Assembly (NCBI RefSeq): GCF_013315695.1
Contig: NZ_CP054355.1
Length of the DNA stretch: 64,000 bases
Source of the DNA: Escherichia coli
GTDB lineage: Bacteria; Pseudomonadota; Gammaproteobacteria; Enterobacterales; Enterobacteriaceae
Reading direction: 5' to 3' (one strand)
Part shown: one piece after another, positions 9,920 to 62,188 of the stretch
Numbering within the stretch: position 1 is the stretch's first letter
Layout: each line of letters begins with the position of its first letter
Notes under the pieces: generated by a model
Database searches by the model: none
The model's input: only the letters and a program-made list of their open reading frames with translations
Told to the model about the DNA's origin: nothing
Translations under genes and position numbers: made by a program

Positions 9920-10246
9920 ATGACTAAAAATACTCGTTTTTCCCCCGAAGTCCGTCAACGGGCAGTCCGTATGGTTCTGGAAAGTCAGGGCGAATATGAC
10001 TCACAATGGGCGACAATTTGTTCCATTGCCCCAAAGATTGGCTGTACACCGGAGACTCTGCGTGTCTGGGTACGCCAGCATGAGCGGAATACCGGAGGCG
10101 GTGATGGCGGGCTCACCACCGCTGAACGTCAGCGTCTGAAAGAGCTGGAACGTGAAAATCGTGAACTGCGCCGCAGTAACGATATCCTTCGCCAGGCTTC
10201 CGCTTATTTTGCGAAGGCGGAGTTCGACCGCCTCTGGAAAAAGTGA
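9920..10246 (+). CDS. IS629 transposase OrfA
   Basis: [19 protein letters not shown]... HTH/leucine-zipper OrfA of the IS3 family. Confidence 0.8.
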
Positions 10247-11133
10247 TGCCACTGCTGGATAAGCTGCGTAAGCTGTACGGGGTCGGACCGGTATGCAGTG
10301 AACTACATATTGCCCCGTCAACGTATTACCACTGTCAGCAACAGCGACATCATCCTGATAAACGCAGTGCCCGTGCGCAGCGCGATGACTGGCTGAAGAA
10401 AGAGATACTGCGCGTATACGATGGGAATCATCAGGTATACGGTGTGCGTAAAGTCTGGCGTCAGTTGTTACGGGAAGGAATCAGGGTAGCCAGATGTACA
10501 GTGGCGCGCCTCATGGCGGTTATGGGACTTGCCGGTGTTCTCCGGGGTAAAAAGGTCCGCACTACCGTCAGCCGGAAAGCCGTTGCCGCAGGCGACCGCG
10601 TAAACCGTCAGTTTGTGGCAGAACGTCCTGACCAGTTGTGGGTGGCTGATTTTACTTACGTCAGCACATGGCAGGGGGTCGTCTATGTGGCGTTCATCAT
10701 TGATGTGTTTGCCGGATACATCGTGGGGTGGCGGGTCTCATCGTCTATGGAAACGACATTCGTGTTGGATGCTCTGGAGCAGGCGTTATGGGCCCGTCGA
10801 CCGTCCGGCACGGTCCATCACAGTGATAAAGGTTCTCAGTATGTATCGCTGGCCTACACACAGCGGCTTAAGGAAGCCGGATTACTGGCATCAACAGGAA
10901 GTACAGGCGACTCGTATGACAACGCGATGGCGGAGAACATCAATGGTCTTTACAAAGCGGAGGTAATACACCGTAAGAGCTGGAAAAACCGTGCAGAAGT
11001 GGAACTGGCCACACTCACGTGGGTGGACTGGTATAACAATCGACGATTGCTGGAAAGGCTGGGCCATACTCCTCCGGCAGAAGCAGAAAAAGCTTATTAT
11101 GCTTCCATCGGAAACGATGATCTGGCAGCCTGA
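10243..11133 (+). CDS. IS629 transposase OrfB (DDE catalytic domain)
   Basis: IS3-family OrfB overlapping orfA in the -1 frame. Confidence 0.8.
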
Positions 11134-19158: not shown

Positions 19159-19261
19159 AACTTCGACTCTGTACGGCGGGTTGAATTAAGCGACGGGCAT
19201 ATGATCGGTCTGACCAACGCGCCAGAAGGGGGAATCCTCCTGGCGCGTTGGTTAGTCGGTT

Positions 19262-31208: not shown

Positions 31209-31295
31209 ACCATCCTGCACTTATGTTGCACAGAAGGAGTGAGCACAGAAAGAAGTCTTGAACTTTTCCGGGCATATAACTATACTCCCCGCATA

Positions 31296-31386
31296 GAGCA
31301 ACAGCTTCTATGCAGTTTCTTGTTAGCCCCGGTAATCTTTCCTACTCGCCAAAGTTGAAGAAGATTATCGGGGTTTTCGCTTTTCT
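31296..31386 (+). ncRNA. copA: CopA-like antisense RNA of the IncFII replicon (approximate)
   Basis: Plus-strand stem-loop ccccggtaatctt...aagattatcgggg followed by ttttcgctttt, between repA2 and repA1. Confidence 0.45.
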
Positions 31387-31519
31387 GGCTCCTGTAAATC
31401 CACATCAGAACCAGTTCCCTGCCACCTTACGGCGTGGCCAGCCACAAAATTCCTTAAACGATCAGCAATCTATCACGCACACCAGAAACAGGCAAGAATG
31501 TGATGTCGCTACATTTTAG

Positions 31520-31768
31520 TTAGCTAAAAGCACTCTTCTGCTTTATCAGTTCGGCAATCATCTCAGCCTGGGTAACGCCCTCAGCTTCACACATCACCTG
31601 CAATTGCGCTTTTAACGCAGCAGGAATGAACACTCTGAGTTCTTTATGTGTAGCTCGTTTTCTTGCCAGGGATGCCTGCTGACGTTCTGCAAGCGTCAGA
31701 GGATTACCTTTTCTGTATGCTCGCTTTGTACCTGATGAGGAAGTCACTGCATTTTCTGTCTGCGACAT
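31520..31768 (-). CDS. repA2: IncFII copy-number repressor RepA2/CopB
   Basis: 82-aa basic protein immediately upstream of the copA/repA1 region. Confidence 0.75.
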
Positions 31769-31934
31769 CTCGCCTCCTCAATACTCAAACAGGGATCGTT
31801 TCGCAGAGGATACTACAGTTTTTTGAAATCAGCGACTTGAGAATTGTGACGAAGATCTGTGTTGGCGCACAAATCAACGGGGATTACTGTCGTTTAATGT
31901 GATTTAAACTGTGAAATAGTATGGTTTTCAGTTA

Positions 31935-32015
31935 TGGAAACGCCGGGAGCGGGGAAAACTTGCTTTTTCCCGTTTCCGGGGTTGGACAACTGAGCAACGC
32001 GAAGGCGTCAGCTAC
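31935..32015. repeat. ~80-bp repeated element, copy 1 (upstream of repA2)
   Basis: ggaaacgccgggag...ccggggttggacaacTgagcaacgcgaAggcgtcagc; second copy at 44645-44745. Confidence 0.55.
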
Positions 32016-32598
32016 GATGTTCCGGGGACTGCTGATCAGCCCCTGTTGTATTCAGCCATTCTCCGGTCATCTGCAGCAGTTTTCTGGCATCGTGGCTTCT
32101 GAGCAACGGAATACCAGCCTGCCTCAGAACCTCTTCCAGAAGAATATCCCGGCGTCTGCGTTCCGGTCGTAAATGGCTGGCATCATCCAGCTCTACTGCT
32201 GCAACAATACTGAACGAACGCCGCTCAACGATAACCACATCAACATGCCACTGAGACACCATCCTGAATAACTGCCACCACTGGCGTGATCGTGGCCGGA
32301 TATTCCCGTTCAGCTGGACGATATCCGCGACCCGTACCTGCGGACACAGATACCACCGCTTCATATCCACAATTCTGAACAGTCCTTTCATAAAACTGAC
32401 TTCCCTTTCTGTCAGCAGCGTCTTCTGACGTTGCCAGTATTCACCGCCGGACAGTATTCGCTCTGCATCACCGGTCCGTATACCTGCCGCATGCAACTGC
32501 ATCAGCAAAGGAGAATGCTGATTTACACTTCTGAGGATAATCCGGATAAGTAACGCTGCAATAATCAGAACAATGAGAATAAAAATAATCAGCTTCAT
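32008..32598 (-). CDS. membrane-anchored protein (DUF2726/NERD-like), unknown function
   Basis: 196 aa, N-terminal TM helix; domain assignment from memory only. Confidence 0.4.
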   Translation of the reverse strand: MKLIIFILIVLIIAALLIRIILRSVNQHSPLLMQLHAAGIRTGDAERILSGGEYWQRQKTLLTEREVSFMKGLFRIVDMKRWYLCPQVRVADIVQLNGNIRPRSRQWWQLFRMVSQWHVDVVIVERRSFSIVAAVELDDASHLRPERRRRDILLEEVLRQAGIPLLRSHDARKLLQMTGEWLNTTGADQQSPEHRS

Positions 32599-32635
32599 TG
32601 TTTATCTGCTCCTGGTAATTAATTATTCTGAATTA

Positions 32636-32845
32636 TTACCTTACATATTTCCATATCTCTTTTGGTATCCTGTCATATAACTTTCCGGTGATTAATTCCG
32701 CTAACCGGTGGTCTGCTGCTGAATTAAATGATTCACGTTCACTGGTTGATAAACTGTCTCTGTTTTTATGAATAATTTTTTCCAGCGTATTGACTGATGA
32801 ACATCGCCGTAACTGATACAGCCATTCCTGTTTTGTTTTTGCCAT
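32636..32845 (-). CDS. hha: Hha/YmoA-family modulator
   Basis: ..YQLRRCSSVNTLEKIIHKNRDSLS...FNSAADHRLAELITGKLYDRIPKEIWKYVR aligns with Hha. Confidence 0.7.
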   Translation of the reverse strand: MAKTKQEWLYQLRRCSSVNTLEKIIHKNRDSLSTSERESFNSAADHRLAELITGKLYDRIPKEIWKYVR

Positions 32846-33352: not shown

Positions 33353-33596
33353 GTTATTCTCCATATCAGATAAATGGCACCTGTATTTCAGGCATCCTGA
33401 ACATTGCAGCACACAATGAATAACACCTTGTTTTGTGAAATAAATCACAAAATATAAAATCTCGACTTAATACGGAAAAAACTCTGTGCTACTCAGAACT
33501 GTACGGTCATACTGCCCGACCGGATATTAAAAAAAGCAAATCTCATGCATTATTCAGCCTTCTGAATCCCTGGAGTAATGAAGGCTGCTTTTTTCG

Positions 33597-33818
33597 TTAC
33601 ACCCTTCCCCGGCTGCGCCGGTGGCAGTGTTCAGCCCTTTTTCGGGCAAACTGCTGCCAGTCTGTCCGGGGCGCAACACCGGCAGCCCGTCGCCATGCTT
33701 CTGCCGCTTCCATCCAGCGTCCACTGACCTCCAGAATAACGGCCCGGCTTCCGGCACGCTGCCAGCGCCAGACCTGACCGTTCCGTGAACTGTTTCTGAA
33801 TCCATTCATCTTTATCAC
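33597..33818 (-). CDS. small Arg/Trp-rich hypothetical protein
   Basis: 73-aa ORF; weak support. Confidence 0.2.
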   Translation of the reverse strand: MIKMNGFRNSSRNGQVWRWQRAGSRAVILEVSGRWMEAAEAWRRAAGVAPRTDWQQFARKRAEHCHRRSRGRV

Positions 33819-36288: not shown

Positions 36289-39200
36289 TCAGTCTCCGCC
36301 CAGGGTTTTCTCTTTCTGCAGGTCACGAACCATATCCCGCTCCATCTGCTGCAGACGCTCCTGCAGCAGATTTTCCCGGGCAACCTCCCGGACCGCTTCC
36401 CGCTCCCGTTGTGATTCACGCAGCACACTCTCCGGCAGTGCGGTTTCCCGTTCAGATATGGCAGACCGGTCACGCTCCTGTCCGGCAATATCCCTGACAG
36501 CCAGCTCTGTTTTGCCATCCGGCAGGTCAGGTTTGTTCTCTGCCATTTTCCTGACAATTTCATCTGCGCGGCGTTCCGTTTCACGGCGGATGGCCTCTTC
36601 AGCCTGCCGCTGTGCCAGTACCTCTGCCGTGACCGGTTCGCCATTTCCGGCCCCCGGCTGGACGCTGTTATCCGGGATATCCCCCCACACGCGGCCACCG
36701 GTGATGGCACCGGGATTCCACGGACGACCTTCACCGGCAATTCTCACCACCACACCGCTGTCAGGATTATCACGGGCAATCCGGACGCCATCCTGCATAT
36801 TATCAGCCAGCAGGCTCTCTCCGTTACGGCTGCCCTGCAGGGCCACGAACTGCGCATCCCCGCTGCCTTTCACCCGTCCTTCACCACTGAATCCCCGCAG
36901 CCCGTTTCCGTCATCCGTGGTCAGTGGGTTCAGCCAGATACCAGCTGACTTGCCGTTACGGTCAAACGCCGGCAGTGCCACATACGGCTGCGGATATTTA
37001 CGTCCCGGTGCAATAAACCGTGCAGGGCTGTCTCCCCCGGCCAGCCCTGCCTGACGGAGAACGGCACGGCCTGCCGCCACGTCCCGCAGTTCCCGTGCCG
37101 TACTGAACAGCCGCTGCGCATTCATGACCTCCCGGTCCGGTTTCGGCTCCAGCACATCGTGGGCAGTTCCTTTCTGTACGGCATTGTTAATGGCATCCGT
37201 CCAGCCCTGACGGTTATCGGTGTACACCTGCACATGCTGCTTCATACGCGACAGGGCCACGTAGGCTGACTCAAAGCCGGCCATCAGTTTCCGGTTACCT
37301 TCCGTGCCTTCAAGCGCGATGGCAAAGGTTTCACTCGCCCCCTGCGCACCGTGGGCGGTGATGGCATAAGCCAGGTCAATATGTTGCTCTGCCCGCTCCT
37401 GGCCGGGGCGAATCACCCGGGTCTGCTGTCCGTCTGACAGCGTGACACTGTCACCGGAAACCGCTGTCACCGTCCAGACGCTGTTGGCCACATAACCGCG
37501 CTCCCGGTCACTCTTCGTGAAGCGCATCCGGTCGCCGGTCCCCACCCGGATTTTGTCCGGGGTGTACAGTGTGACACCTTCAGCCACCGCCTCCCGGGGC
37601 GAAATCAGCCGCGTGTTACCTTCCGCATCCTCCAGGGTTATCAGCCCGTCATCCTTGCTGATACCGGCAATCCGGTGATACACACTATCCACCAGGGCAA
37701 GGGCATCCGGGTTATTCTCCCAGGTGGAGAGACGACGCAGCTCCCCGTCACGTATATTCGCTGTGTTCAGGACAGGCACCATGACCTGCTCTTTCCCCAG
37801 CTCACCGGCCTTTTCCCGTGCATCATGAATCATGCTGTTCAGTACGCGCCGGTCCTCATTCAGGTGCGTGACAATCAGCGTCTGCTCCCGTGCTTCCGGT
37901 GTCCTGCCGGTATAGTCGCGGACAATGGCTTCATACAGTGTCATGGGGACATCCGGAAAAGTCTCACCTTTCAGCATCGCCTTCTGCTGCGCTTCTGCCA
38001 GTTTCGCTTCCTGGCTGTGACTGAACTCCGTCACGGAGTGCTCCGGTGCCCATGCGCCCTCCTGACGGGGAACCTGAGACGGTTTCACACTCTCAAGCCC
38101 GGACAGTGCCCTTTCCACATCCCGGTTAATCAGGCTGTATACCGCCTCCCGCAGTTCCGGCGTCTGACGCACAATCTCCTTCATGATGACCACATCGGCA
38201 GCACTGCGCGTCTGCTGGAGACGGAAAGGCTGACCGGGCGCGATGGCCTGCAGCTGGTCCGTGTCACCACTGGCCACGGCACGACCGCCACCGGCCGCAA
38301 TCAGGGCGTATGCCCGTGCCATGTCGGTATTGCCCACCATTGAGCTCTCATCGAGCAGGAACAGCGTGTTGCTGAAATCCGGCGTTTCTCCGCTGCGCTG
38401 CTGCAGCTGCGTGTCATGCAGAAAGGACGCCAGCGTCTGTGCATCCACGCCGGCGCTGCGCATCTCACCGACCGCACGGTGCGTGGGCCCCAGCCCCACA
38501 ACTCGGGGACGCTCACTCGCCGGCAGCATGTTCACGGCTGACATCACCGCCCGGAACTGTGTGGTCTTACCCACACCGGCATAACCCTGTACCACCGTGA
38601 AACGGTCGGACGTTTCCAGTATCATACGGGTGGCGGCACGCTGTCCCGACGTTAACGTCTCCATGAGTTCGCCGGGTACTCTCTCCATCAGCGGCGTGAC
38701 CGCCTCCTTACCTTCGAGAATATGGCGAAGAATACTTTTTTCTGCCTCATACGACGCACGGGAAACCAGCAGGCCTGTGCCATAGCCTTTTGCCACATCC
38801 ACATACAGTAAGTCACCGCGTTTTATCTGCGCATTGATTTCCCCTCCCAGTTCAGTAAAACCGGTTCCTTCTGCAGCAAACGACTTCGCCTCTGTCAGCA
38901 GGTCCACCATGCTGAAGGCCAGGTTTTTACTTTCCAGCACAGGAAGGGCCAGATGAATGGCCTGCTGTGCCGGCGTGTGCAGCCCGGTTTTCTGCAGACT
39001 GATAGCGGTTTCCAGCGATGTCTCACCGGCCCGCGCCTTTATCTGCTCAGAAACCACCGTAAAGGAGGGATGGCGGGCAAGTTTTTCCGCAGTACGGGTT
39101 TCATCCAGTGAGGAATACAGCCGGACATCACGACCGCTGCGGGCCAGACCGTTCAGGGTGGCGTTGTCCATTGCCATCTGTGTGACGGAGGCAAACACCG

Positions 39201-41559
39201 TCGCACTGTCACTGACGGAATGCCCGGGCGTTTCCACCCAGCCGTTCTCCAGCTTCAGTGCCGTGAACGGTGAATCAGCCACAGGCAGGGTGGCCGGTTC
39301 AGCCCGCCCCGGCACAACAACCGTCATCGCATCTTCACTGACGGATGCCACCTGCAGGCGGTCACCGCCGGAGACGCGGAGTCCGGGAATTTTCCCTGTC
39401 ACCCTCAGTCGCTCGCCGTCTGCCACCGGCATTTTTTCCGGCCGGAACAGCGACCAGCTGCTGTCCAGGGAGGAAATACGCACCACCTGCGTTTCGCCCT
39501 GCGCATCCCGCAGGGTCAGGCTGTGACTCTGCGCCGTCACCCGGTCGATAACATAGCGGTCATGACTGCGTGTCTCCGGGTTCCACTGCTCCATCACCAT
39601 CCCCGGTCGGTACATATCCCGCAGATAACGGCTCCGGCTGTCCAGCCAGACCGGTGACAGGGCGGTCATGGTCACCTCCGGGTGTCCGAGCACGCCCTGT
39701 GTTTTCAGCTCACTGCGAATGGCCTGTGTCAGTATGGCCTGTTCCCGTACCCCGCTGACCTGTGCCACGCTCTCTTCTCCGGCTTTCACGCTGGCCGCAA
39801 AATCTCCGGCCAGCCGGTCATAGCGGACATTCCGGTCCGGTTCACTGATGATGGTTGCCGGTCGCTGTTCTCCGCCCTGCCAGCGATACGTGTTCACCCC
39901 GGTATCCTTCATGGCCATCAGCGCACTGCCTGTACCGGTTCGCTGCCCGCTGTCGGTTATCAGGACCTGTACGTTATGACGTGCGGCACCGTCCAGCAGG
40001 GTTAACGTCTCTTTCAGGGAGAGTTTTTCGCCCTGGTCGACGATAACAGTACTGCCCGGCGTGAAGACCATGCCCTCCTGCAGCTGACGACGTCCGGTTA
40101 TCAGCTCACCGGACAGCCGTTCATCCTGCTTCAGGTTCATCTGCGAGCGACGGTCAGCAGCGATAATCTGCACCTCCCGCCCCTGCTCCCGGGCCATCAT
40201 GACCAGTTCAGCCACCCGCTCACGCTGCCCGGCTGCACCGCCCTGCCCGGACACAATGGCCAGCGACGGACGGTCCTGTGCCAGAACACTGACCGCATCG
40301 CTGTAACCAGCCGTCCGGGGGACACTTTTCTCCGGATGTACGGTCACCCGGTTCTGTTTCATGATGTCACGACTGAGTGCCCGGACGGACAGCTCATCGA
40401 GCACATGAATTCCTGATGTGAACAGCCCCTTCTCACGGTCGAGGGGGATAAGCTGCTCACGGCTGATGGCCTCATCGATACCGGCGCGTGCCCGTTCAAT
40501 CACACCATTTTCCGGCGGCAGTATGCCGACCGTCCTGGCCAGCACGTCCGTATACGTGAACTGCACTTTTCGTTCACTTAATCCGGCAATCGCCTGTGTC
40601 ACCGCCTGCTGCACATCCGGCCCGTCCTGTGAAGCAGGCCCGGGCGCCTGCGTGCGGATCTCCGCACGCTGATCCGCCGCGTCACGATATGCCCGGATGT
40701 CGAACCCGGTTTCCTTCAGCGTCTGCATCCATTCAGCCATTCTGATTTCCGGATCGACGTGCTGTTTGGATTTACGCGTATCCAGTGCCGCCACATCCCG
40801 GGATTTCAGCGAGGCGTCTTCCCCGACGGCCTCCCGGATAGCCTGTGAGCGTCCGGAAAAGGCCTCCACCGGTACGCCCGGCATCTCCCACATACCGTGC
40901 TTACCCACCACTTCGGTTTCATAGCCCAGCGCCTCAACCTGCTCTTTCAGTTTTTCCCGGTAGAGCCTGCCAAAGGCAATCTGATTAGCGTACACATTCT
41001 CAATGAACCCCGTTTTCCCCACTTTGTCACTGCTCAGTGTCTTCCACTCACCGTTATGCTGCGTGACATTAGCCACCACCGCATGCGTGTGTAACTGTGG
41101 TTCCTGATCGCGACTGGTGTCGTGGTTAAACAGTGCCATCACCAGATTACCGGTCAGCACCGTTTCTGACTGTCCGTCCGTCATCACCCGTGTGGAGGCC
41201 AGCGCCTCCACCTGACGAACAGCAAAGTCCACGGCCTGGTTATGTGCATCAATCAGGCGCTTATCGCCACCTAACATGGCCATCATGGAGACACTTTTGG
41301 GGGCGGAGAAGGTCAGGTCGTAGCCGGGACGATGCTTATTACTGCCATCCTGCATGCGGCTTAGATCCGCTCCGTCCGGCAGCCTTCCCTCCAGAAGACG
41401 GGTAAAAACATCCTTATCGACACTGCCCTGCAGTCCCAGCTGTTCAGCCCCCCTGCCGGCCCAGCGTTCTCCCATGCTGCCCAGTACATAGTAATTATCC
41501 TTGTCGGTATAATAGTTACCGGCACTTCCGGCCGATCTGACCTGCGCGATACTCATCAT
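36289..41559 (-). CDS. traI: relaxase/helicase TraI
   Basis: 1756 aa, N-terminal relaxase and helicase Walker motifs. Confidence 0.9.
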   Translation of the reverse strand: MMSIAQVRSAGSAGNYYTDKDNYYVLGSMGERWAGRGAEQLGLQGSVDKDVFTRLLEGRLPDGADLSRMQDGSNKHRPGYDLTFSAPKSVSMMAMLGGDKRLIDAHNQAVDFAVRQVEALASTRVMTDGQSETVLTGNLVMALFNHDTSRDQEPQLHTHAVVANVTQHNGEWKTLSSDKVGKTGFIENVYANQIAFGRLYREKLKEQVEALGYETEVVGKHGMWEMPGVPVEAFSGRSQAIREAVGEDASLKSRDVAALDTRKSKQHVDPEIRMAEWMQTLKETGFDIRAYRDAADQRAEIRTQAPGPASQDGPDVQQAVTQAIAGLSERKVQFTYTDVLARTVGILPPENGVIERARAGIDEAISREQLIPLDREKGLFTSGIHVLDELSVRALSRDIMKQNRVTVHPEKSVPRTAGYSDAVSVLAQDRPSLAIVSGQGGAAGQRERVAELVMMAREQGREVQIIAADRRSQMNLKQDERLSGELITGRRQLQEGMVFTPGSTVIVDQGEKLSLKETLTLLDGAARHNVQVLITDSGQRTGTGSALMAMKDTGVNTYRWQGGEQRPATIISEPDRNVRYDRLAGDFAASVKAGEESVAQVSGVREQAILTQAIRSELKTQGVLGHPEVTMTALSPVWLDSRSRYLRDMYRPGMVMEQWNPETRSHDRYVIDRVTAQSHSLTLRDAQGETQVVRISSLDSSWSLFRPEKMPVADGERLRVTGKIPGLRVSGGDRLQVASVSEDAMTVVVPGRAEPATLPVADSPFTALKLENGWVETPGHSVSDSATVFASVTQMAMDNATLNGLARSGRDVRLYSSLDETRTAEKLARHPSFTVVSEQIKARAGETSLETAISLQKTGLHTPAQQAIHLALPVLESKNLAFSMVDLLTEAKSFAAEGTGFTELGGEINAQIKRGDLLYVDVAKGYGTGLLVSRASYEAEKSILRHILEGKEAVTPLMERVPGELMETLTSGQRAATRMILETSDRFTVVQGYAGVGKTTQFRAVMSAVNMLPASERPRVVGLGPTHRAVGEMRSAGVDAQTLASFLHDTQLQQRSGETPDFSNTLFLLDESSMVGNTDMARAYALIAAGGGRAVASGDTDQLQAIAPGQPFRLQQTRSAADVVIMKEIVRQTPELREAVYSLINRDVERALSGLESVKPSQVPRQEGAWAPEHSVTEFSHSQEAKLAEAQQKAMLKGETFPDVPMTLYEAIVRDYTGRTPEAREQTLIVTHLNEDRRVLNSMIHDAREKAGELGKEQVMVPVLNTANIRDGELRRLSTWENNPDALALVDSVYHRIAGISKDDGLITLEDAEGNTRLISPREAVAEGVTLYTPDKIRVGTGDRMRFTKSDRERGYVANSVWTVTAVSGDSVTLSDGQQTRVIRPGQERAEQHIDLAYAITAHGAQGASETFAIALEGTEGNRKLMAGFESAYVALSRMKQHVQVYTDNRQGWTDAINNAVQKGTAHDVLEPKPDREVMNAQRLFSTARELRDVAAGRAVLRQAGLAGGDSPARFIAPGRKYPQPYVALPAFDRNGKSAGIWLNPLTTDDGNGLRGFSGEGRVKGSGDAQFVALQGSRNGESLLADNMQDGVRIARDNPDSGVVVRIAGEGRPWNPGAITGGRVWGDIPDNSVQPGAGNGEPVTAEVLAQRQAEEAIRRETERRADEIVRKMAENKPDLPDGKTELAVRDIAGQERDRSAISERETALPESVLRESQREREAVREVARENLLQERLQQMERDMVRDLQKEKTLGGD

Positions 41560-43784
41560 CAGAAATCATCTCCCGGCTCAACATCCTCCCCACGCTCCCG
41601 GTGCACATTAATGTTCACCTCTTCACGACGCTGCATCTGCTGCTGGATGTCCGGATGATTTTCCTGTTGCCATGCCTCATAAGCGGCCATATCCACCACT
41701 TCACCGGATTCACTGATCCCGGGTGGCAGTTGCTGTTCCATCTCTTCTTCCGGTTTCATTTTCAGCTCCTGCTCGATCCCCCCTGCCGGAACACTCACAC
41801 CTGCATCTGACTTCTTATCATTGATGACAGAAGACACTGGCTGTTGTGGCTGTTGTGGCTGTTGTGGCTGTTGTGGCTGTTGTGGCTGTTGTGGCTGTTG
41901 TGGCTGTTGTGGCTGTTGTGGCTGTTGTGGCTGTTCAGCCTGAGTCACATCTTCTCCGGAGGCAACCTCCGGTTCAAAGAGGCTGGCCATCTGACGACCT
42001 TCTGCTTCCCTTGCGGCAAGTACGGCACTCAGACGGTTCTCCATTTCCGGGTTGATGTCACGCGGAATAAACTCCGGAGCGACCTTCGGTCGTGCCTGAT
42101 ATTTCAGAGAGAGTTTGACTGCCGGATACGGTCCGGGCAGAGTGACATAGCAGGTCAGATCCGGCAGAGACTGAATGTCGGAATAACTGACCAGCGTCTG
42201 ACGCTCCATATCCTTACCGGTCGATACCCCGTCACGTACCGGGTCAGCACCGTAGGAATACTGCTCGCTGGCTTTCAGGTGCTCTTTCTCACCAATCTCA
42301 CCGGCAGCGAACTCTGCAATCTTATGGCTCGGGGAACGGAAAAAAGCACGGGTGTTCATGACGTCAAACAGCGTGGCCGCCGCTTTCTCACCGTAGATAT
42401 CTTCCAGCTGGGCATAGGACTGGATACCAAACACATAACAGCCACCGAACTTACGGGCTTCCGGCAGGATCTCCACCAGGTCCGGCAGTTTGTGTAACGT
42501 GGGTAACTCGTCACAGAAAAACCACACACGACGGTTACGGTTTTCTCCCATTGCCAGCAGACCACGAATGGCAATGGACAGCCACATGGAGATCACCGGC
42601 TTCAGGGAGGCATGGGTGTCGGCGTTCGACGAAATAAACAGCCAGCCGTTTTTCTGATCTTCCCGGACACCACGCATCCAGTCACGGATGGTAAAAGACT
42701 CACCGTTATGCTCAATCCCCTGCAGGTAACGGATGGCTTTCACGTAGTTGGTCAGCACAGCACGGATGGAAATCGCCGTTTTCTCAATTTTCTCTTCCAC
42801 CAGGTTGGCTGCCGGTGAATTACGCAGGAAGGTACGCAGTTTTTCAATTTTGATGGAAAGCAGTGTGTCCACCAGTTTGCTGTAGCTGCGGTTGGGGTCA
42901 TTACGCATCAGGTACGCCGCTTCCGCAAAAATGGTACGTCCTGAACCCTGCCAGAACGGGTCCTCTTTTGTACCCATAGGGATCAGAGTATTTGCGGTAT
43001 TATCAAAATCCGGCTGTGTCAGGCACTCCTTCCACAAATCCCATGCGGCACAGCGGGCATCCAGCGGATTCAGGATTTTATCGATGGAGGGATCATAGTA
43101 ACTTTTAACAAATTCCCCTGAACGGTCATAAATCACCACCATATCACCGCGCTGACGGGCATAGTTGGCCAGACGACGGATAACCTCCGACTTACCGGCC
43201 CCGACCGTGCCGTGCAGACAGAAGTTCTGGATTTCGGAATCCCGGATAATCGGCAGGTCGCCAATCCGGATATCGGAGTCCTTGCCGTCTTTTTTCAGCA
43301 TCCGGGCCACTTCTTTCGGGTTATCCGTCAGCTGACGCCCGCCGGTCACCTCATTTTCACTCTGCTGTTTCCCCTGATGCCCCAGAATCCAGGAGACAAC
43401 AAAGAAGGTGATCAGGCAAATAACCAGGGCCACGACAGACGCCAGAACGAATGCAGACCATAGCTGCTCTCCGCACCAGATCATATATTTATCATGCAGT
43501 ACCTGGGCAGCGTTCATCCGGAAGGTTTTGCCGTAATACTGGATCTCATAGACCGGCTGGGATTTTATTAAATCCCGCATGCCTTCCAGTGACGTACACC
43601 ACCAGTAAATACAGCCGTTGATAAACGTCTGCCAGCTTATTTTTACCCATAAGACCAGACCAATGAGGATCCAGAAAAAAATAAACAGGCAGTAAAGCAT
43701 GATATTGGCGATCTGGCTGAACATGCGGATACGCATGGACGCAATCTGACCGCCCTGGGTCATATCCTTTGCGTTAAAACTCAT
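41559..43784 (-). CDS. traD: type IV coupling protein TraD
   Basis: 741 aa, N-terminal TMs, Walker [10 protein letters not shown]-terminal (QQP)10 repeat. Confidence 0.9.
41841..41930. repeat. perfect 9-bp tandem repeat x10 (ctgttgtgg) encoding the (QQP)n tract of TraD
   Basis: Counted directly in sequence. Confidence 0.9.
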
Positions 43785-43834: not shown

Positions 43835-44572
43835 TTAATTCACAGAAACAGACCAGGTGTACCCTGTATGCCGGTGGTGATGCCCGCCTGCAGTCCTGCC
43901 GGAAGAGACCTTCTCTGTAACAATGTCAGTCAGGCGCAATACTTCAGACCAGTCACTCCCATGCGGAAACTGGATCTGAATAAAAAGGCGTACCCGTTCA
44001 CGGTGATCCAGAACTGTGTCCGGTTCATAAAAACGGCCACTGTCAGGAGAAACACAGGACGTTTTATTGATGAGATCATACTTATCGGCAGGAGACTGCG
44101 ATGAAATCGCCCAGGTGATATTCTCCGCCTGGTGGCCATCAATACGACTGCTCCCCGGCGTCCATGCAATTTCCTGCGCACTCGCCACGATGATCTCCCT
44201 GGAAACTTCAGCCAGCTTTCTGGGTGTACAGAATACCGGTGCCAGCACACACAGGGACAACAAATTACAGCTGACCGCCTCCGGTTTAAGCAAATTGCTC
44301 CCGGATTTTTCAGGAAAAGATATTTTTGTCAGTATTTCAGTTAATTCCTTATGCCTGAGAGAATTAATAAAGTACATGATAAGCATCATGAGAAACAATA
44401 TAACAATAAGCCCTCCGATAACCACTAAAAGGTCAGTATCAATATTATTGCTGTACAGATAGTCTTTAGTGGTCACTGTATTATCCTGTATCACCGGGGG
44501 GTATTCAGTTACAGGCTTCTCAGTAAATTGATTATTCTCACCAACATATTCAGCGATATTGTCTGATGTCAT
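43835..44572 (-). CDS. hypothetical single-pass membrane protein inserted between traT and traD
   Basis: ATG at 44572 preceded by GGAGAAAG; one TM helix ([22 protein letters not shown]); no recognisable domain. Confidence 0.5.
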
Positions 44573-44644
44573 AATGACTTTCTCCGGAAGATCCCGGCTT
44601 CGCCGGCAACACTTCACGGTCGCACAAAGAATTTGCACAACCGC

Positions 44645-44745
44645 TCAGTGTTTTCATATTTATTTCGGAAACGCCGGGAGGTGACAAAATTTATTTTGTT
44701 ACATCCCGGGGTTGGACAACGAGCAACGCGAGGCGTCAGCAAGGA
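44645..44745. repeat. ~80-bp repeated element, copy 2 (between traT and the extra gene)
   Basis: Conserved flanks shared with 31935-32015, different internal hairpin. Confidence 0.55.
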
Positions 44746-44774
44746 GGCCGGTCAGATCAGCCTCCTGACGAGGT

Positions 44775-46029: not shown

Positions 46030-48851
46030 AATGGCCCCTTCAATCGTTCTTTCTTATCATCCACCATCTGTTTTAACGCATCTTCAGACGGTGTTGGCAT
46101 TAATTTCTGTCGTTTATTTTCTTCATTATATCTGTTGTTTTGCTGAATTTCTTCCTGTTTGTGATTATTTTTTAACTCTGAATATTGTCTGTCTACAATA
46201 TTTTCTTCGCCATGAATACTATTCTGAGTATCTCCGATATTCCCTTTATATTCTGTGACCATATTATCAACCTGATGTTTTACATCATTACGGATATTAC
46301 TGTCCTGCGTTCTTTGATCAATAATGACCTGATGCCCCTGATGGTCAGCAATAATATCCTGGCTGCCACCACCCGAAGGTACGCTCTCCATTCCTTTACC
46401 AATATCCCCACGGGATTCACGCCAGGCATTATCAACACCAGGCTGTACCTGTTCCTGCACAAAAGACCACGCCATAGCCCGACGGCGTTCTGCAATCTCC
46501 GGCGAACTGGTATTTGTCAGAATAGCTTCTGCATCCTGCGGTGCGCGTTTCATCACATACTGTGCAAACTGTTGCGACAAGTCTTCACTCATCTGCCCGC
46601 TCATGCTTTCAGTACGGGAGGCCATTTCCGCATATTCATGGCTGCGGGTCATATTCGTCGTGTACTGGTCGTAACTCTGTTTTGCTGAGTTCAGGGCTGC
46701 AGACAACTGGTCCACGCGGGAATCGGCATTATTGTCAGTATGGCTGCCGGATTCACTGACTTTGCGACTGGTAAAGTAATCGCTGGCCTCTTTAAAGTCC
46801 TTACTGGCTTTAGCATCGATATCATGGCGAGCATCATGGGTAGCCCTGCTGCCACTACTTGCTGAATGTGAGTCATCATCCGTTGCATCCAGGCTCCCCT
46901 TAAATCCACCTCTGATGCCTACCCCACCACCAACACCAAGAATTTTAGGTTTAACCCCCCATTCAGCATGAGCATCAGCATACATTCCACCAGATAGCCT
47001 GGTACTTGTTGATGCCAGTTCCTGAGTCGCCTGCTCATTACTGATATTATGCGCCTTCGCATAGCTTTCCACTGCACTGCGCATACGGCTGGCCATCATG
47101 GAGTCCTGTGCGCTCATCGTGCTGTCAGCACCACCTGTGACAGAATCACTGCTCCCCCGGTTAGAACCAAACTGGCTGAGCGAGTTCCAGGCACTGGCAA
47201 TACTGCTGCTGAACCCATGCAGGGCGCTTTCTGCTCTGTTCGACGCCTCCCGGGCCATTTCCTGTTGTGCCGCTGCAATCTGACGCGTTGCATTGATACC
47301 AACCGGTAACCGGGACATCGCCCCGCTCGCATCCATCACCATATTACCGTCACGGGTCTGTGTGGCAGTTGCGCCACTGCCGGTCTGGTACATCATCTGA
47401 CCAAACGACGTGGTGCTGTTGGTGCTCCAGCTGAAGCCGTTCACGTTTTCCGTCTGCATGTTGCCGTAGGAGTAATTACCGTCAACCACACTACCTGCCG
47501 CACTGGCAGTCGGGCTGATAGCAGAGGAAGCGAAATGGCTGTACACGCTGGAAAAACCTGCGCCAAGGCCTTTTACCATCATCCATGACAACGGGGGTAT
47601 CATGACAGATATATATCCGGCAGTGGACGCCAGGTCGGAGTATTTCAGCTGTATCTGAGAGAGTTCAGAGAGCACGACCGGTGCACCATTCTGCTTTGCA
47701 TAGAATGTCATGGCACTGTTCAGAATGGCATACAGCAACGGCCAGGTCTGGAACCACATCAGAGCAAACACATAGCCTCTCAGAACAGACAGCGTCAGTC
47801 TGTTGAAGACAGCCGCCAGTACCAGGAGCGGGAAGATACCAATGGTAATGCCCACCAGAATGGTCTGCACCATCGGCAGGTTTCGCATCAGCACATGACC
47901 AATGGAGACATGTGCCAGACGCTGTTTCTCCATTGACGAAGTCGTGGCCAGACTGACCAGGCTGGCGGTATCACCGTTACGGGCTGCATTACTGGTGATA
48001 CCCTCTTTCAGGGCATTCATGGTGACGTTCTGGCGCATAATATGACTGGCAGACTGGCTGGAGCCGTAGAAATAACTGTAACTGTCACTCACCAGTTGCC
48101 TGAATAACAGGTCCGGGTCCGGTCTGCCGCCAAATATCTGCTGCACATAATAATGCCAGGTCTTGCCTCCCGTCTTTGTATCGAGATTCAGCCTGTCTTT
48201 CAGCGTGACCGACGCATCTTTACAGGTTATGAAATTATTATTGCTGTCATAAACGCCCCGTAGCGGGCTGGGCCGGGAAAAAATCAGCGTGTAGGGGTCA
48301 CCGGAGGCCATCAGGTCTTCCAGCGTGTATTTGTGGTTCAGGTAAATATCCCCCAGCACGCAGTTCTGGACGTAGTCCTGAAACAGATTGATGATTTCCG
48401 GATTCCGGGACAGAAAATCGGTGCTTTTCACAATCAGGTTCGCCCCGAACAGCATGCCTGTCTTGCTGTAGGTGGCGCTGTCAGGCTGGGTGAATATCAT
48501 CTCGTAACTGGCCACCATTGCATGCCCGATACGGGTCGTCAGTGAAAGTGGCATCGCCAGTCCGACCGGCACATTATCCACCCGGTGAACTTTGACCAGG
48601 TCACTGTTATCAATAATCTGCACCGATGTACGGACATTAACCAGCAGGCTGATAAGCACAAACACGGCCACCCAGCCCAGCAAATCCATCACGTTGTGCC
48701 GCTGTACCCACATCACGGCCACCGCGAGAACAGACAATGTGAGCGCAATTTTTTCGATGGAATCCCACGTCCGGGTCCCCATAAAGGCGGCAATGGCGTT
48801 CAGGTTATTGCTTAACCACTCACCACCGGCAATCACATAGACTTCATTCAC
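46026..48851 (-). CDS. traG: mating-pair stabilisation protein TraG
   Basis: 941 aa, polytopic N-terminus, position. Confidence 0.85.
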   Translation of the reverse strand: MNEVYVIAGGEWLSNNLNAIAAFMGTRTWDSIEKIALTLSVLAVAVMWVQRHNVMDLLGWVAVFVLISLLVNVRTSVQIIDNSDLVKVHRVDNVPVGLAMPLSLTTRIGHAMVASYEMIFTQPDSATYSKTGMLFGANLIVKSTDFLSRNPEIINLFQDYVQNCVLGDIYLNHKYTLEDLMASGDPYTLIFSRPSPLRGVYDSNNNFITCKDASVTLKDRLNLDTKTGGKTWHYYVQQIFGGRPDPDLLFRQLVSDSYSYFYGSSQSASHIMRQNVTMNALKEGITSNAARNGDTASLVSLATTSSMEKQRLAHVSIGHVLMRNLPMVQTILVGITIGIFPLLVLAAVFNRLTLSVLRGYVFALMWFQTWPLLYAILNSAMTFYAKQNGAPVVLSELSQIQLKYSDLASTAGYISVMIPPLSWMMVKGLGAGFSSVYSHFASSAISPTASAAGSVVDGNYSYGNMQTENVNGFSWSTNSTTSFGQMMYQTGSGATATQTRDGNMVMDASGAMSRLPVGINATRQIAAAQQEMAREASNRAESALHGFSSSIASAWNSLSQFGSNRGSSDSVTGGADSTMSAQDSMMASRMRSAVESYAKAHNISNEQATQELASTSTRLSGGMYADAHAEWGVKPKILGVGGGVGIRGGFKGSLDATDDDSHSASSGSRATHDARHDIDAKASKDFKEASDYFTSRKVSESGSHTDNNADSRVDQLSAALNSAKQSYDQYTTNMTRSHEYAEMASRTESMSGQMSEDLSQQFAQYVMKRAPQDAEAILTNTSSPEIAERRRAMAWSFVQEQVQPGVDNAWRESRGDIGKGMESVPSGGGSQDIIADHQGHQVIIDQRTQDSNIRNDVKHQVDNMVTEYKGNIGDTQNSIHGEENIVDRQYSELKNNHKQEEIQQNNRYNEENKRQKLMPTPSEDALKQMVDDKKERLKGPL

Positions 48852-59863: not shown

Positions 59864-60559
59864 AGTACACCTCTTTTTGACATACTTCGGGTATGCATAT
59901 AAGTATATATTATTATGATGCAAAAATCAGCGCGCAAATACACATACTGTTATCTTACTTTTAGTAAGCCTTATTTATTTTACCTTGCGTTATGTTAACC
60001 AATAAAAATCAAAATCTGACTTATAAAAACAAACCGTAATTATCGCATTCCCGTTTCCGTCAGATCCGACTTTCATTAATATCACAACTTTCCGGAAGTG
60101 TACCACGCTGAGAAAATCATCATATCACTGTTTTCCGCCCCTGCGCGGCGCATCACAGGTCAGGGAGATGGCACAACATATAGTGTAATTAACAGCTAAA
60201 TTCAGCACTACATGTTGTGCTGACGGGAGATGGCGCTGTGCGGCGGGAGAGGAAGATCCGTGACTACCTTTTTTCGGATCTTATTAGTGTAGAAGAACGA
60301 TTGTTGCGGTGAGGGGATTATTGCTTAGGAAGCAAAATTCAAAACTGACTAAGCCAGAAATAGCAACAACAAGATAAGGAAATTTTCCCCCTCAGCCCCT
60401 GCATGCCGTGAGGGGGAGCAACTACCCAACTACAGTTTTCATTTTATGATACGTCTTCACTAGGTAATACCTGTGAACTGACAGAGTCTTTACGGAATGT
60501 ATGGCGGACCTAAATTTGATCCCTGAAAACTGTCAGCGCTGCGAGGACGAAGAAAGTAT

Positions 60560-60730
60560 TACGGCTAAAGCCGTAATACCTCCCCATCCAGCTTCAAGCT
60601 ATGTAGAAACTTATGTGGGTAGAGCAGTCCCGACAGGGCAGTACCGCATTGACAGGCCGTCAGGGCCGCTTACGAGCTTGTATGACAAGGGGGGCCTAGC
60701 GAATTATTGTACGGTAAGCCTTTTTTGAAC
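60560..60730. other. structured non-coding element Y (diverged homologue of element X)
   Basis: Shares ccccatcc...cttYtgtg...gtcccgac...ggccgtcagggccgcttacgagcttgta with 29640-29770. Confidence 0.35.
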
Positions 60731-61054
60731 AGCCTTACCTATTGCTATAGAGGGGAACTCCTACGTTATACGCCGCTTTCAGGGGATTCGACCTTAATGA
60801 GACAACTCAAATATGATCGACAACTTAAACGCGATAGTTGCTGATAAAATCAATCCATTACGCGTTTCAATTGATTAAATAATGCACTTAATGTACAAAA
60901 ATTCCCGATCTCAAAACTGAACCCTAAAGATACCAGGCATCTCCCCCAGGAAGCGCCCTCATGCGTTTTCCTGTTCCGCCCCTGCCACCTACCTTCTGTT
61001 ACATACTTGTTGTATTATTGTTTTTGTTTTCAATCCCCAAGGAGACGTCGCTAT

Positions 61055-61222
61055 ATGACTGTGCGGGAGACAGAGGAAAACATTGAACAAATCTTCCCTG
61101 AGCTTTCGAACTTAATTGATATTATTAATAAATGGCTTTCCCATGGAAACATTGATCCTGAACTGGCACACTTCATCATTTATCTTCTTGATTACCTAAC
61201 CACCACACACAAAAGCATATAA
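61055..61222 (+). CDS. small acidic protein (55 aa), unknown function
   Basis: ATG preceded by AAGGAG at -10; followed by a terminator. Confidence 0.4.
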   Translation: MTVRETEENIEQIFPELSNLIDIINKWLSHGNIDPELAHFIIYLLDYLTTTHKSI

Positions 61223-61332
61223 AAAATTTCCTTGCACATCCATTTTTTTGCGAATATTATTATTCCTGCTGAATATGATTCAATATCGCACGCTACTCAT
61301 CCATCCCAGGATAATGAGTTCATAGGTTGAAG

Positions 61333-61360
61333 TCTCAACACCCCCACTACGGGGGTGTTT
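61333..61360 (+). terminator. Rho-independent terminator
   Basis: acacccccactacgggggtg hairpin followed by T8. Confidence 0.6.
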
Positions 61361-61488
61361 TTTTTACCAATAAACACAAATCACACCATCGCCATACTCT
61401 GTTTGCCAGACATCGATTGGTAAATATGCGTAACTCGCTATAATACAAAAAGAAAAATCAGAACCAGAAACCAGTTTCCAGATAAAAA

Positions 61489-61513
61489 ACACCCTCCCGA
61501 AGGAGGGGACAGA
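61489..61513 (-). terminator. Rho-independent terminator (minus strand)
   Basis: ccctcccgaaggaggg hairpin preceded by an A-run on the plus strand. Confidence 0.5.
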
Positions 61514-62047
61514 CACATTCATATTTCCCAAAACAGGAATTTTTATTTTTATGACGCATTAATGAAGTTACTTCATCTCCAGTAGATTAACTTCATTTAA
61601 AGTGGCGATCAATCATATTTATTACGACTCTAAACTATTACAACAACCACAATAAGATATCACCTCAAATATAAAAGATAATTCTTACAAAAACGTTCCG
61701 AAAACAAAAAATACAGATAAACACCAATTAATTCAGAGCAATCTATTGCGAAGAATCAGAGTAACAGGGCCCCATGATATAATCATGGGGCCCTGTTGCT
61801 TTTACAGATGTAAAAACGACCAATCATTTAACATCTGTTATCGGCACCGCCCCGGACGGGTTCGGCGCAAATATGGTATGGTACCAGCCCGGCAATTCAC
61901 CTGCCGTGCAATCTGACGAAGCAGTACCGGCGTATGCAGATATATCGTCCAGACATATCTGCCGCATTCAGGCGGTGAGTAAAGCCTTCTCTCTCAAAAG
62001 AGGAGCAACAGTTATCCACAGATTCTGGGGATAACTGCGAAAAGAAT

Positions 62048-62188
62048 ATGTGCCAGGAAAGTCGGCTCCCGGGAAAAAGACCGCTGGCGGCGCACCTGCT
62101 GGATACGAAAGCTGAGCTGAAAGGATCCCGGGAGGACGTCCGTAAACTTCAGTCCCTGGCCCGTCATGACGGGAAGGCGAAAAAGTGA
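62048..62188 (+). CDS. small basic ORF (46 aa) coupled to the downstream ORF
   Basis: Stop TGA overlaps the GTG start of the next ORF (GTGA); weak RBS. Confidence 0.25.
   Translation: MCQESRLPGKRPLAAHLLDTKAELKGSREDVRKLQSLARHDGKAKK

What the first reader, a model, noticed from the sequence alone, without database searches (positions are those of the whole stretch)
31935..32015. ~80-bp element with conserved arms and a swappable hairpin core, present upstream of two unrelated genes
Copies upstream of repA2 and upstream of the extra tra-embedded gene (44645-44745) share the flanks GCTGACGCC.TCGCGTTGCTC.GTTGTCCAACCCCGG and CTCCCGGCGTTTCC on the minus strand, but each carries a different internal inverted repeat. 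This pattern suggests a portable promoter/operator cassette or a recombination site.
Basis: seen in the sequence. Interest (0 to 1): 0.5.

Follow-up and report, generated by a model that had tools for sequence, protein, structure and literature searches.

The report
Strand-specific hairpin module at IncF gene boundaries
A conserved ~75-base module occurs twice in this F-like plasmid (just after traT, and just before the replication-control genes); its 20-bp hairpin pairs properly only on the DNA strand that is transferred during conjugation, so it looks like a single-strand DNA signal and recombination junction, not a promoter.

Summary
Two copies (31936-32012 and 44667-44740) share near-identical arms around different, self-complementary cores. 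A covariance model scores them 98 and 78 bits; nothing else in the window exceeds 12 bits.

The promoter reading is not supported. Each copy starts at or just after the stop codon of the upstream gene (yihA/DUF2726, traT). No promoter-like hexamers were found. Copy B is also present in plasmids that lack the "extra" gene.

In public plasmids and metagenomes the module occurs only in IncF plasmids, always co-oriented with the genes. It is found in two contexts, traT-traD and upstream of the IncFII replicon. It has 22 different upstream and 22 different downstream flanks that reassort, so it is a real mosaic junction.

The hairpin shows compensatory changes at 9 of 19 pairs. Its wobble pairs lie almost entirely on the strand antisense to the genes (46 G-U against 3). 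Two neighbouring hairpins show the opposite polarity. The antisense strand carries the oriT nick, so it is the transferred strand.

Best reading (confidence about 0.4): a hairpin signal on the transferred strand, possibly a priming site for the complementary strand in the recipient. Rivals: a leaky terminator or insulator, an antisense RNA element, or a single-strand recombination site. The function is untested.

The parts
31936..32012 (+). Copy A, the whole conserved module (rep-type). The strand given is the one on which the hairpin folds, which is antisense to the genes.
   Evidence: 98.1 bits. Identical or near-identical in at least 5000 plasmid records.
31939..31983 (+). Copy A main hairpin: AAC/GTT closing pairs, a G-G mismatch, a 16-bp stem (31943-31958 with 31964-31979) and loop CTTGC (31959-31963). 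Four of the 16 stem pairs are G-U/G-T on this strand, which makes them A-C mismatches on the gene-sense strand.
   Evidence: plus strand -42.5 kcal/mol (z -4.85), minus strand -30.9 (z -3.3). Also.
31984..32012 (+). Copy A 3' arm: an invariant single-stranded GGACAAC, then a small variable second hairpin ending in the invariant GGCGTCAG(C).
   Evidence: Alignment A3. In Klebsiella-type copies the 5' half of this second hairpin is GACGCC, pairing with GGCGTC.
32008..32010 (-). Stop codon (TGA) of the DUF2726/yihA gene. It lies inside the module's first bases, CTGACGCC.
   Evidence: The same TGA ends at least five unrelated upstream ORFs in other plasmids.
44667..44740 (+). Copy B, the whole conserved module (traT-type).
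   Evidence: 77.6 bits. Present after traT in R100, F and pSLT-like plasmids.
44670..44713 (+). Copy B main hairpin: AAC/GTT closing pairs, a G-G mismatch, a 16-position stem (44674-44689 with 44694-44709) and loop TTTA (44690-44693).
   Evidence: plus strand -34.9 kcal/mol (z -4.46), minus strand -26.4 (z -3.08).
44714..44740 (+). Copy B 3' arm: GGACAAC followed by GAGCAACGCGAGGCGTCAGC.
44742..44766 (-). Context, not part of the module: hairpin HP-a directly after the traT stop. It has sense-strand polarity.
   Evidence: 9 G-U pairs on the sense strand against 3 on the antisense strand, over 8 variants.
44610..44650 (-). Context and control: hairpin HP-c in the highly conserved traT-traD spacer. 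It folds on the gene-sense strand.
   Evidence: -31.1 kcal/mol on the minus strand against -16.1 on the plus strand; 33 G-U pairs sense, 0 antisense.

Best explanation
The element is a discrete, self-contained ~75-nt module of IncF plasmid backbones. It sits between gene modules at two fixed places: after traT, and at the upstream edge of the IncFII replicon block. Its core is a 3 + 16 bp hairpin, and the pairing is maintained by selection on one strand only. That strand is antisense to the tra and rep genes and is the nicked, transferred strand (T-strand) of conjugation. I infer that the module acts as folded single-stranded DNA when the T-strand is exposed, above all in the recipient. The hairpin would resist SSB and, together with the invariant unpaired GGACAAC and the small second hairpin, would present a fixed structure. 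The most likely use is as a single-strand initiation signal for complementary-strand synthesis. Priming at copy A would convert repA2-copA-repA1-oriR to duplex first, and priming at copy B would convert traD-traI-finO. The frequent G-T wobbles, which are A-C mismatches in the mRNA, would at the same time stop the sense transcript from forming a strong terminator inside operons. Because the module is far more conserved than its flanks, it also serves, actively or passively, as the crossover point where accessory modules are exchanged. Shown here: the existence of the family, its restriction to IncF plasmids, the two contexts, the fixed orientation, the covariation, the strand polarity, the identity of that strand with the nicked strand, and the reassortment of flanks. 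Inferred: that the active form is ssDNA rather than RNA, and the priming function.
For: Covariation: on 38 distinct sequences, 96.5% of cells are paired and 9 of 19 pairs change on both sides. The covariation score is 0.295 against 0.154 for shuffles (0 of 500 reach it) and at most 0.134 for slid registers. Strand polarity: in 27 distinct cores there are 46 G-U pairs on the antisense strand and 3 on the sense strand, and the antisense strand is more stable in 27 of 27 with both RNA and DNA parameters. Two more diverged copies fold only on the antisense strand (z -3.0 against -0.6 and -1.0). Internal controls: two other hairpins in the same traT-traD spacer have the opposite, sense polarity (33:0 and 9:3). 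T-strand identity: the oriT nick sequence TTTGCGTGGGGTGT|GG lies on the strand antisense to the tra genes, both in an IncFIIK plasmid that carries the module and in F. Orientation: all 129 copies are co-oriented with the tra and rep genes. Self-contained: both flanks vary right up to the module, so no conserved promoter can drive an antisense RNA through it. Not a strong sense terminator: no terminator-like site was found, and in several plasmids ORFs with ribosome-binding sites start 26-40 nt downstream. Background: stable T-strand hairpins (Frpo/ssi) are known to prime and transcribe incoming ssDNA (PMC11541004; PMC10085688).
Against: There is no direct evidence for priming or for any ssDNA activity. 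There is no conserved 5'-CTG-3' for DnaG: it is present in copy A but absent in copy B. The stem is too short to hold -35 and -10 boxes as Frpo does. G-T pairs (up to 4 of 16) stabilise RNA more than DNA, which would favour an RNA reading. Orientation relative to transfer cannot be separated from orientation relative to transcription, because all neighbouring genes point the same way. Only two copies per plasmid seems few for a general priming system. IncFIIK plasmids lack the traT copy and F lacks the rep-type copy, so neither copy is indispensable. Non-conjugative derivatives such as pO157 keep the module unchanged. The variants were collected with a pattern that fixed 23 arm bases, so arm conservation is partly due to ascertainment. 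The 27 cores are not phylogenetically independent.
Confidence: 0.4

Rival explanations
1. It acts in the sense (minus-strand) mRNA as a leaky intrinsic terminator, insulator or 3' stabiliser. It would end or attenuate traT and yihA transcripts and shield downstream modules (traD; hok/srnB; the copB-repA control region) from read-through.
For: It begins at or just after stop codons of co-directional genes. It sits upstream of modules that are sensitive to read-through. The hairpin is followed by GCGUUUCC/U. A 1987 paper on F traS-traT reports 'promoter and terminator activities' in this region, but only the title was seen. F carries the module in that spacer.
Against: Wobble polarity is 46:3 in favour of the other strand. 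In the commonest variant the sense RNA stem is broken into 4+4+4 bp by A-C mismatches (-15 against -29 kcal/mol). The U-tract has only 3 U, and the scan found no terminator-like site. Genes with ribosome-binding sites start 26-40 nt downstream with no room for a promoter. The 35-nt conserved arm is not explained by a terminator.
Confidence: 0.25
2. It is a structured element of an antisense (plus-strand) RNA, for example a processing or stability hairpin for transcripts that run against the tra and rep genes.
For: The polarity fits plus-strand RNA, and G-U pairs are typical of RNA helices. Several antisense sRNAs of related plasmids map to the plus strand of this window: CopA, AS-pc02, AS-traI and AS-traG.
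Against: No Rfam family matches either copy, even at E of 10 or less. There is no U-tract after the plus-strand hairpin. The sequence 5' of the hairpin on the plus strand differs completely between contexts, so no conserved promoter exists. No promoter-like site was found.
Confidence: 0.1
3. It is a single-strand recombination site. The folded T-strand would be cut and rejoined by a recombinase or by the conjugative relaxase (attC-like, or a pseudo-nic site), and this would generate the mosaic junctions.
For: The module has sharp boundaries, reassorting flanks, a chimeric copy with a Klebsiella-type arm joined to an E. coli-type core, and one locus with two copies bracketing a single gene. The top strand has GTCCAAC (= RYYYAAC) and the bottom strand GTTGGAC (= GTTRRRY). 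Structure selected on the bottom strand is also the rule for attC sites (PMC6393395). There is strand-specific similarity to the oriT nic regions: hairpin AAAACTTG(C)TTTTT followed by GGGGT(G)TGG (0-1 of 500 shuffles).
Against: Only 3 bp of the R boxes can pair, and there are no extrahelical bases or unpaired central spacer. GGGGTTGG lacks a base of the TraI core GGGGTGT|GG and does not change between plasmids of the F and R100 nic types. The traT-type and rep-type copies never exchange flanks. Ordinary homologous recombination plus purifying selection can explain the mosaicism.
Confidence: 0.1
4. It is a portable promoter/operator cassette for the downstream gene.
For: Its position is 167 nt upstream of repA2 and 96 nt upstream of the extra ORF. 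It contains a TTGTCC hexamer.
Against: No -10 partner exists and no promoter-like site was found. The downstream genes differ widely, and copy B is present without the extra gene. Compensatory evolution with strand polarity points to a nucleic-acid structure, not a duplex protein-binding site.
Confidence: 0.03
5. It has no function of its own. It would be an old duplicated piece of backbone, kept similar by gene conversion or hitch-hiking.
For: There are only two loci, both in one plasmid family. Either copy can be absent.
Against: Compensatory double substitutions occur at 9 pairs. The wobble pattern is one-sided, while adjacent hairpins have the opposite polarity. The module is much more conserved than both flanks across E. 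coli and Klebsiella lineages (note the ascertainment caveat).
Confidence: 0.05

Closest known systems
Single-strand initiation / ssDNA promoter hairpins of conjugative plasmids (Frpo of F, ssi1-3 of ColIb-P9)
   Same: They are stable hairpins that function only on the transferred strand, are orientation-fixed and plasmid-borne, and act in the recipient before the complementary strand exists (PMC11541004; PMC12672017).
   Different: Frpo/ssi are roughly 300-nt structures (size from my own knowledge) with -35 and -10 boxes reconstituted in the stem, and they lie in the leading region. This module is 75 nt with a 19-20 bp stem, has no promoter boxes, and lies after traT and before the replicon. 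No activity has been shown.
Integron attC sites
   Same: They sit at the 3' end of genes, often overlapping the stop codon. They have conserved ends around a variable, self-complementary centre. Structure is selected on the bottom strand and they fold as ssDNA, for example during conjugation (PMC6393395). The RYYYAAC and GTTRRRY-like heptamers are present here.
   Different: Only AAC/GTT can pair. There are no extrahelical bases, no unpaired central spacer, no associated IntI and no cassette arrays. The module carries an extra conserved 35-nt arm.
Rho-independent terminators / the dyad symmetries after traT described for F (Jalajakumari et al. 1987, J Mol Biol 198:1; not readable here)
   Same: It lies immediately after a gene, has a GC-clamped stem-loop, is followed by GUUUC, and is the same region of F.
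   Different: The sense-strand stem is interrupted by A-C mismatches and the U-tract is short. The polarity of wobble pairs is antisense, unlike the two flanking hairpins.
oriT nick-proximal inverted repeat of F-like plasmids
   Same: It is on the same strand and shows an A-run/T-run hairpin followed by a GGGGT..TGG run.
   Different: It is one base short of the TraI recognition core and does not covary with relaxase specificity. The stem is twice as long. The similarity may be a coincidence of composition.
Conserved 'linker' or boundary sequences between modules of mosaic phage genomes
   Same: It is a short conserved island between exchangeable gene modules, and the flanks reassort.
   Different: Here the island carries a covarying, strand-polarised hairpin, which suggests a function beyond providing homology.

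Membership tests
Sigma-70 promoter/operator cassette | -35 and -10 hexamers at 16-18 bp spacing, oriented towards the downstream gene | tested here: not met
   Zero promoter-like sites in 31400-32700, and none overlapping 44667-44740.
Sigma-70 promoter/operator cassette | Constant association with the regulated gene | tested here: not met
   There are 22 downstream flank classes, and copy B is present without the extra ORF.
Intrinsic (Rho-independent) terminator of the sense transcript | Uninterrupted GC-rich stem on the transcribed RNA, followed by a U-tract (at least 5 U in 8) | tested here: not met
   The scans found none at either copy on either strand. The tail is CGUUUCC. The sense stem is broken by A-C mismatches.
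Intrinsic (Rho-independent) terminator of the sense transcript | Measured termination in vivo | not testable with these tools
   Only the title of Jalajakumari 1987 could be seen.
Frpo/ssi-type ssDNA promoter | Long T-strand hairpin that reconstitutes -35 and -10 boxes | tested here: not met
   The stem is 3 + 16 bp and has no hexamers.
Frpo/ssi-type ssDNA promoter | Structure specific to the transferred strand | tested here: met
   46 against 3 wobble pairs, 27 of 27 cores more stable on the antisense strand; that strand carries the nic sequence.
Primase/PriA single-strand initiation site | Supports primer synthesis on SSB-coated ssDNA in one orientation | not testable with these tools
   This needs an M13 delta-ori or in vitro assay. 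A conserved CTG for DnaG is absent in copy B.
Integron attC | R''/R' heptamers (RYYYAAC/GTTRRRY) that pair with each other | tested here: not met
   GTCCAAC is present, but its partner is only GTT, and the following bases vary (TCC, TCT, TTC and others).
Integron attC | Extrahelical bases and an unpaired central spacer in the folded bottom strand | tested here: not met
   The stem is continuous apart from one G-G mismatch.
Integron attC | Bottom-strand folding preference | tested here: met
REP/ERIC/MITE-type dispersed repeat | Many copies dispersed in chromosomes | tested here: not met
   The pattern scan of 100,044 species genomes gave 6 stretches of DNA; the three from enterobacteria (Escherichia, Klebsiella) score as full rep-type copies. 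There are two copies in this window.
F-family oriT nic site | TraI recognition core GGGGTGT|GG (F) or AGTGTGT|GG (R100) | tested here: not met
   The module has GGGGTTGG in plasmids of both nic types.
Any Rfam RNA family | A match at or near the gathering score | tested here: not met
   Nothing at gathering score. The best sub-threshold hit is 17 bits with E 0.4, and it is unrelated.

The most novel reading that the evidence does not exclude
The module is a previously unrecognised class of T-strand signal outside the leading region. It would be either a compact complementary-strand priming site that lets the replicon and the distal tra genes become double-stranded early in the recipient, or a folded-ssDNA site at which the relaxase or another enzyme joins modules, making it the molecular cause of IncF backbone mosaicism.
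Probability: 0.25. Interest if true: 0.75.

Novelty: new variant of a known kind. Interest (0 to 1): 0.5.

Why it matters
IncF plasmids are the main carriers of resistance and virulence genes in Enterobacteriaceae. How the incoming single strand is converted to duplex beyond the leading region is still unclear.

A conserved hairpin selected specifically on the transferred strand, placed just 3' of the replicon on that strand, gives a concrete and mutable candidate site for testing this question.

The module also marks the exact point where accessory modules (hok/srnB, nucleases, immunity genes, unknown genes) are swapped next to the replicon. That is useful for plasmid typing and for reconstructing recombination history.

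If instead it is a deliberately weakened terminator, it still documents an unusual case: a hairpin kept strong on one strand and weak on the other.

Tried and rejected
- **Rfam.** No family matched at gathering score or at permissive thresholds.
- **Promoter and terminator scans.** Nothing was found at either copy.
- **Literature search for the exact sequence.** No relevant paper turned up.
- **Key older papers.** The 1987 F traS/traT paper, the 1994 tra review, Nomura 1991 (ssi) and Nuk 2011 (finO-distal region of R1) are not in the library.
- **IesR-1 antisense RNA of pSLT.** I checked it as a possible identity. It lies in the PSLT047-mig5 spacer, a different locus, so I rejected it.
- **pHK01 plasmid sRNAs.** The four of them that Rfam finds in this window (AS-pc02, AS-traI, AS-traG, CopA) map elsewhere, not at either copy.
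- **Dispersed repeat / MITE idea.** Rejected: the scan of species-representative genomes gave only 6 stretches of DNA; the three from enterobacteria (Escherichia, Klebsiella) score as full rep-type copies.
- **attC identity.** Rejected on structure; see the membership rows.
- **oriT/nic similarity.** Kept only as a lead. The alignment scores beat mononucleotide shuffles, but the TraI core is not intact.
- **Window-wide scan for other plus-strand-biased hairpins.** It was too noisy to reveal a series of T-strand sites.
- **Nucleotide-diversity comparison of module and flanks.** It is confounded by ascertainment and by indels in the flanks, so I do not rely on it.
- **The 337-aa gene bracketed by two copies.** No Pfam or NCBIfam match.

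Full report
**Observation.** The window is an R100-like IncFII plasmid; its tra genes and replication-control genes are on the minus strand.
- Copy A is 31936-32012 and copy B is 44667-44740.
- Their arms are identical apart from two 1-nt indels, and their cores differ.
- Each arm motif occurs exactly twice in the 64 kb.
- A covariance model built from related sequences scores the two sites 98 and 78 bits, and nothing else exceeds 12 bits.

**Position.** Both copies lie directly behind a gene.
- The TGA inside GCTGACGCC is the stop codon of the DUF2726/yihA ORF. Copy B starts 35 nt after the traT stop.
- repA2 starts 167 nt after copy A. The annotated start of the extra ORF is 96 nt after copy B.
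- F-like and pSLT-like plasmids without the extra ORF keep copy B and the next ~125 nt unchanged. Only 1766 of 4157 matching records cover the ORF. Copy B therefore belongs to the traT-traD spacer, not to that gene.
- F itself has the traT copy.
- An IncFIIK Klebsiella plasmid lacks it in the same spacer, although the rest of the spacer is homologous.

**Distribution.**
- BLAST finds the module in at least 5000 plasmid records of Escherichia, Klebsiella, Shigella, Salmonella and relatives, at about 1.5 places per record.
- An exact-arm pattern matched 6 stretches of DNA among 100,044 species-representative genomes; the three from enterobacteria (Escherichia, Klebsiella) score as full rep-type copies, so this is not a chromosomal repeat family. 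The same pattern found at least 120 metagenome stretches.
- All 129 copies recovered fall into two contexts: traT upstream with traD downstream, or upstream of the IncFII replicon block. All are co-oriented with those genes.
- In the replicon context the next module can be repA2 itself, a hok/srnB locus, a phospholipase-D nuclease, or several unknown genes.
- The preceding gene can be yihA, a ~108-aa gene whose truncated form PGAP annotates as a bacteriocin immunity protein, a PIN-domain gene annotated in one plasmid, or others.
- Conservation begins at CTGACGCC and ends at CCGGCGTT(TC).
- At least five unrelated ORFs end at the module's TGA.
- Flank classes (22 upstream, 22 downstream) reassort, with one strict four-gamete quartet. 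The traT-type and rep-type copies never exchange flanks.
- One plasmid lineage has two copies bracketing a single 337-aa gene of unknown family.

**Structure.** The core is a hairpin: AAC/GTT, one G-G (or C-C) mismatch, then 16 pairs and a 4-6 nt loop.
- Twenty-seven distinct cores were found between identical arms.
- On a model-guided alignment of 38 distinct sequences, 96.5% of cells pair and 9 of 19 pairs change on both sides. The covariation score is 0.295, against 0.154 for shuffles (0 of 500) and at most 0.134 for slid registers. The sequences are related, so these numbers overstate independence. Even so, several cores (GGGAGCGGGGAAAA, GGGAGGTGACAAAA, GGGGAGAAATAAAA, GGAATCGGGGGAAA, GGCAGCGGGAGAAA) are clearly independent solutions.

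**Strand polarity (the key result).**
- In every variant the strand antisense to the genes (the window plus strand) forms the full helix. The sense strand is broken by A-C mismatches.
- The count is 46 G-U pairs on the antisense strand against 3 on the sense strand. The antisense strand is more stable in 27 of 27 variants, with RNA or DNA parameters.
- Two more diverged copies fold only on the antisense strand.
- The same 250-nt spacer provides controls. The hairpin right after the traT stop (HP-a) and a 13-bp hairpin 25 nt beyond copy B (HP-c) have the opposite polarity: 9:3 and 33:0 G-U pairs, sense against antisense.
- Selection has therefore preserved pairing on the antisense strand while tolerating, or favouring, a weakened hairpin in the mRNA.

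**Which molecule.**
- The oriT nick sequence TTTGCGTGGGGTGT|GG lies on the strand antisense to the tra genes, in an IncFIIK plasmid that carries the module and in F. That this sequence is the F nick site rests on my own knowledge of the oriT literature. The well-folded strand is thus the transferred strand.
- An antisense RNA would need a promoter in the flank 5' of the hairpin. That flank differs completely between contexts, and no promoter-like site or Rfam family is found.
- By inference from the known direction of IncFII replication, vegetative replication exposes the other strand.
- I therefore favour a folded-ssDNA role on the T-strand, as with Frpo/ssi hairpins, with complementary-strand priming as the most concrete possibility.
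- Against this: there is no assay, no conserved CTG, a high wobble content that suits RNA better than DNA, only two sites, and each site is dispensable in some lineages.

**Alternatives.**
- *Leaky sense terminator or insulator.* This is biologically sensible given what lies downstream, and it may correspond to the dyad symmetries reported after F traT in 1987 (title only). It explains neither the polarity nor the conserved arm, and ORFs begin 26-40 nt after the module in several plasmids.
- *attC-like or relaxase-mediated ssDNA recombination.* This would explain the junction behaviour and the polarity. However, the defining attC features are absent, and the nic-like run GGGGTTGG is one base short and invariant across relaxase specificities.
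- *Promoter.* This idea fails every test applied.

**Verdict.** The promoter interpretation is rejected, and the mosaic-junction interpretation is supported descriptively. The module is an undescribed (in Rfam and in the searchable literature) IncF-specific hairpin element with transferred-strand polarity. Its function remains to be tested.

Noticed in passing
window 44560-44666 (minus strand): The ~110 nt of the traT-traD spacer after copy B is almost identical in R100, F and pSLT, and is recognisable in IncFIIK. It contains a 13-bp sense-strand hairpin with four G-U pairs (44610-44650) and a CCGGC-GAA-GCCGG hairpin. This is probably a traD leader or processing structure of the mRNA.
   Followed up: partly
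window 43835-44572 (minus strand): The 'extra' 245-aa ORF between traT and traD is an indel polymorphism, present in about 1766 of 4157 matching plasmids. It has no NCBIfam match.
   Followed up: partly
L023 9938-11130; L134 2900-4101: Two copies of the module, the second diverged (53 bits), bracket a single 337-aa gene that has no Pfam or NCBIfam match. The arrangement is cassette-like and lies upstream of repA2.
   Followed up: partly
L135 7214-7288: In an IncFIIK plasmid, a 20-position hairpin (18 Watson-Crick pairs, two mismatches) begins at the traI stop codon (CTGACGCG...) and ends before traX. It is a weak match to the module model (17.8 bits, E 6e-4) and may be a distant relative.
   Followed up: partly
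oriT of F (NC_002483.1 66135-66183) and L135 40360-40400, compared with both copies: The nick-proximal inverted repeats of oriT (GCAAAAACTTGTTTTTGC in F; GCAAAATTTTAATTTTGC in IncFIIK and, minus the first base, in the pSLT-like plasmid), followed by GGGGTGT|GG, resemble the cores of copy A and copy B followed by GGGGTTGG. The resemblance is on the same strand.
   Followed up: partly
window 31293-31382, 33516-33700, 38634-38710, 48047-48132, 61268-61359, 10201-10317: Rfam hits on the plus strand: CopA, AS-pc02, AS-traI, AS-traG, UptR and an ALIL pseudoknot (an IS3-family frameshift element, from my own knowledge).
   Followed up: no
window 41559-43784 (TraD C-terminus): TraD carries a run of ten QQP repeats near its C-terminus.
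   Followed up: no
window 61751-61810 and 19201-19260: Two very stable near-perfect palindromes (-38 and -41 kcal/mol): AACAGGGCCCCATGAT-ATA-ATCATGGGGCCCTGTT and ACCAACGCGCCAG...CTGGCGCGTTGGT. Their function was not examined.
   Followed up: no
window 60500-64000: The right end of the window does not continue into recognisable tra ORFs in the list examined, and no oriT nick sequence was found in the window. The tra region may be truncated or interrupted here.
   Followed up: no
L005 2471-2556: In a Salmonella Kentucky plasmid the rep-type module is cut at its upstream arm by a strA-strB (aph(3'')-Ib / aph(6)-Id) resistance insertion.
   Followed up: no
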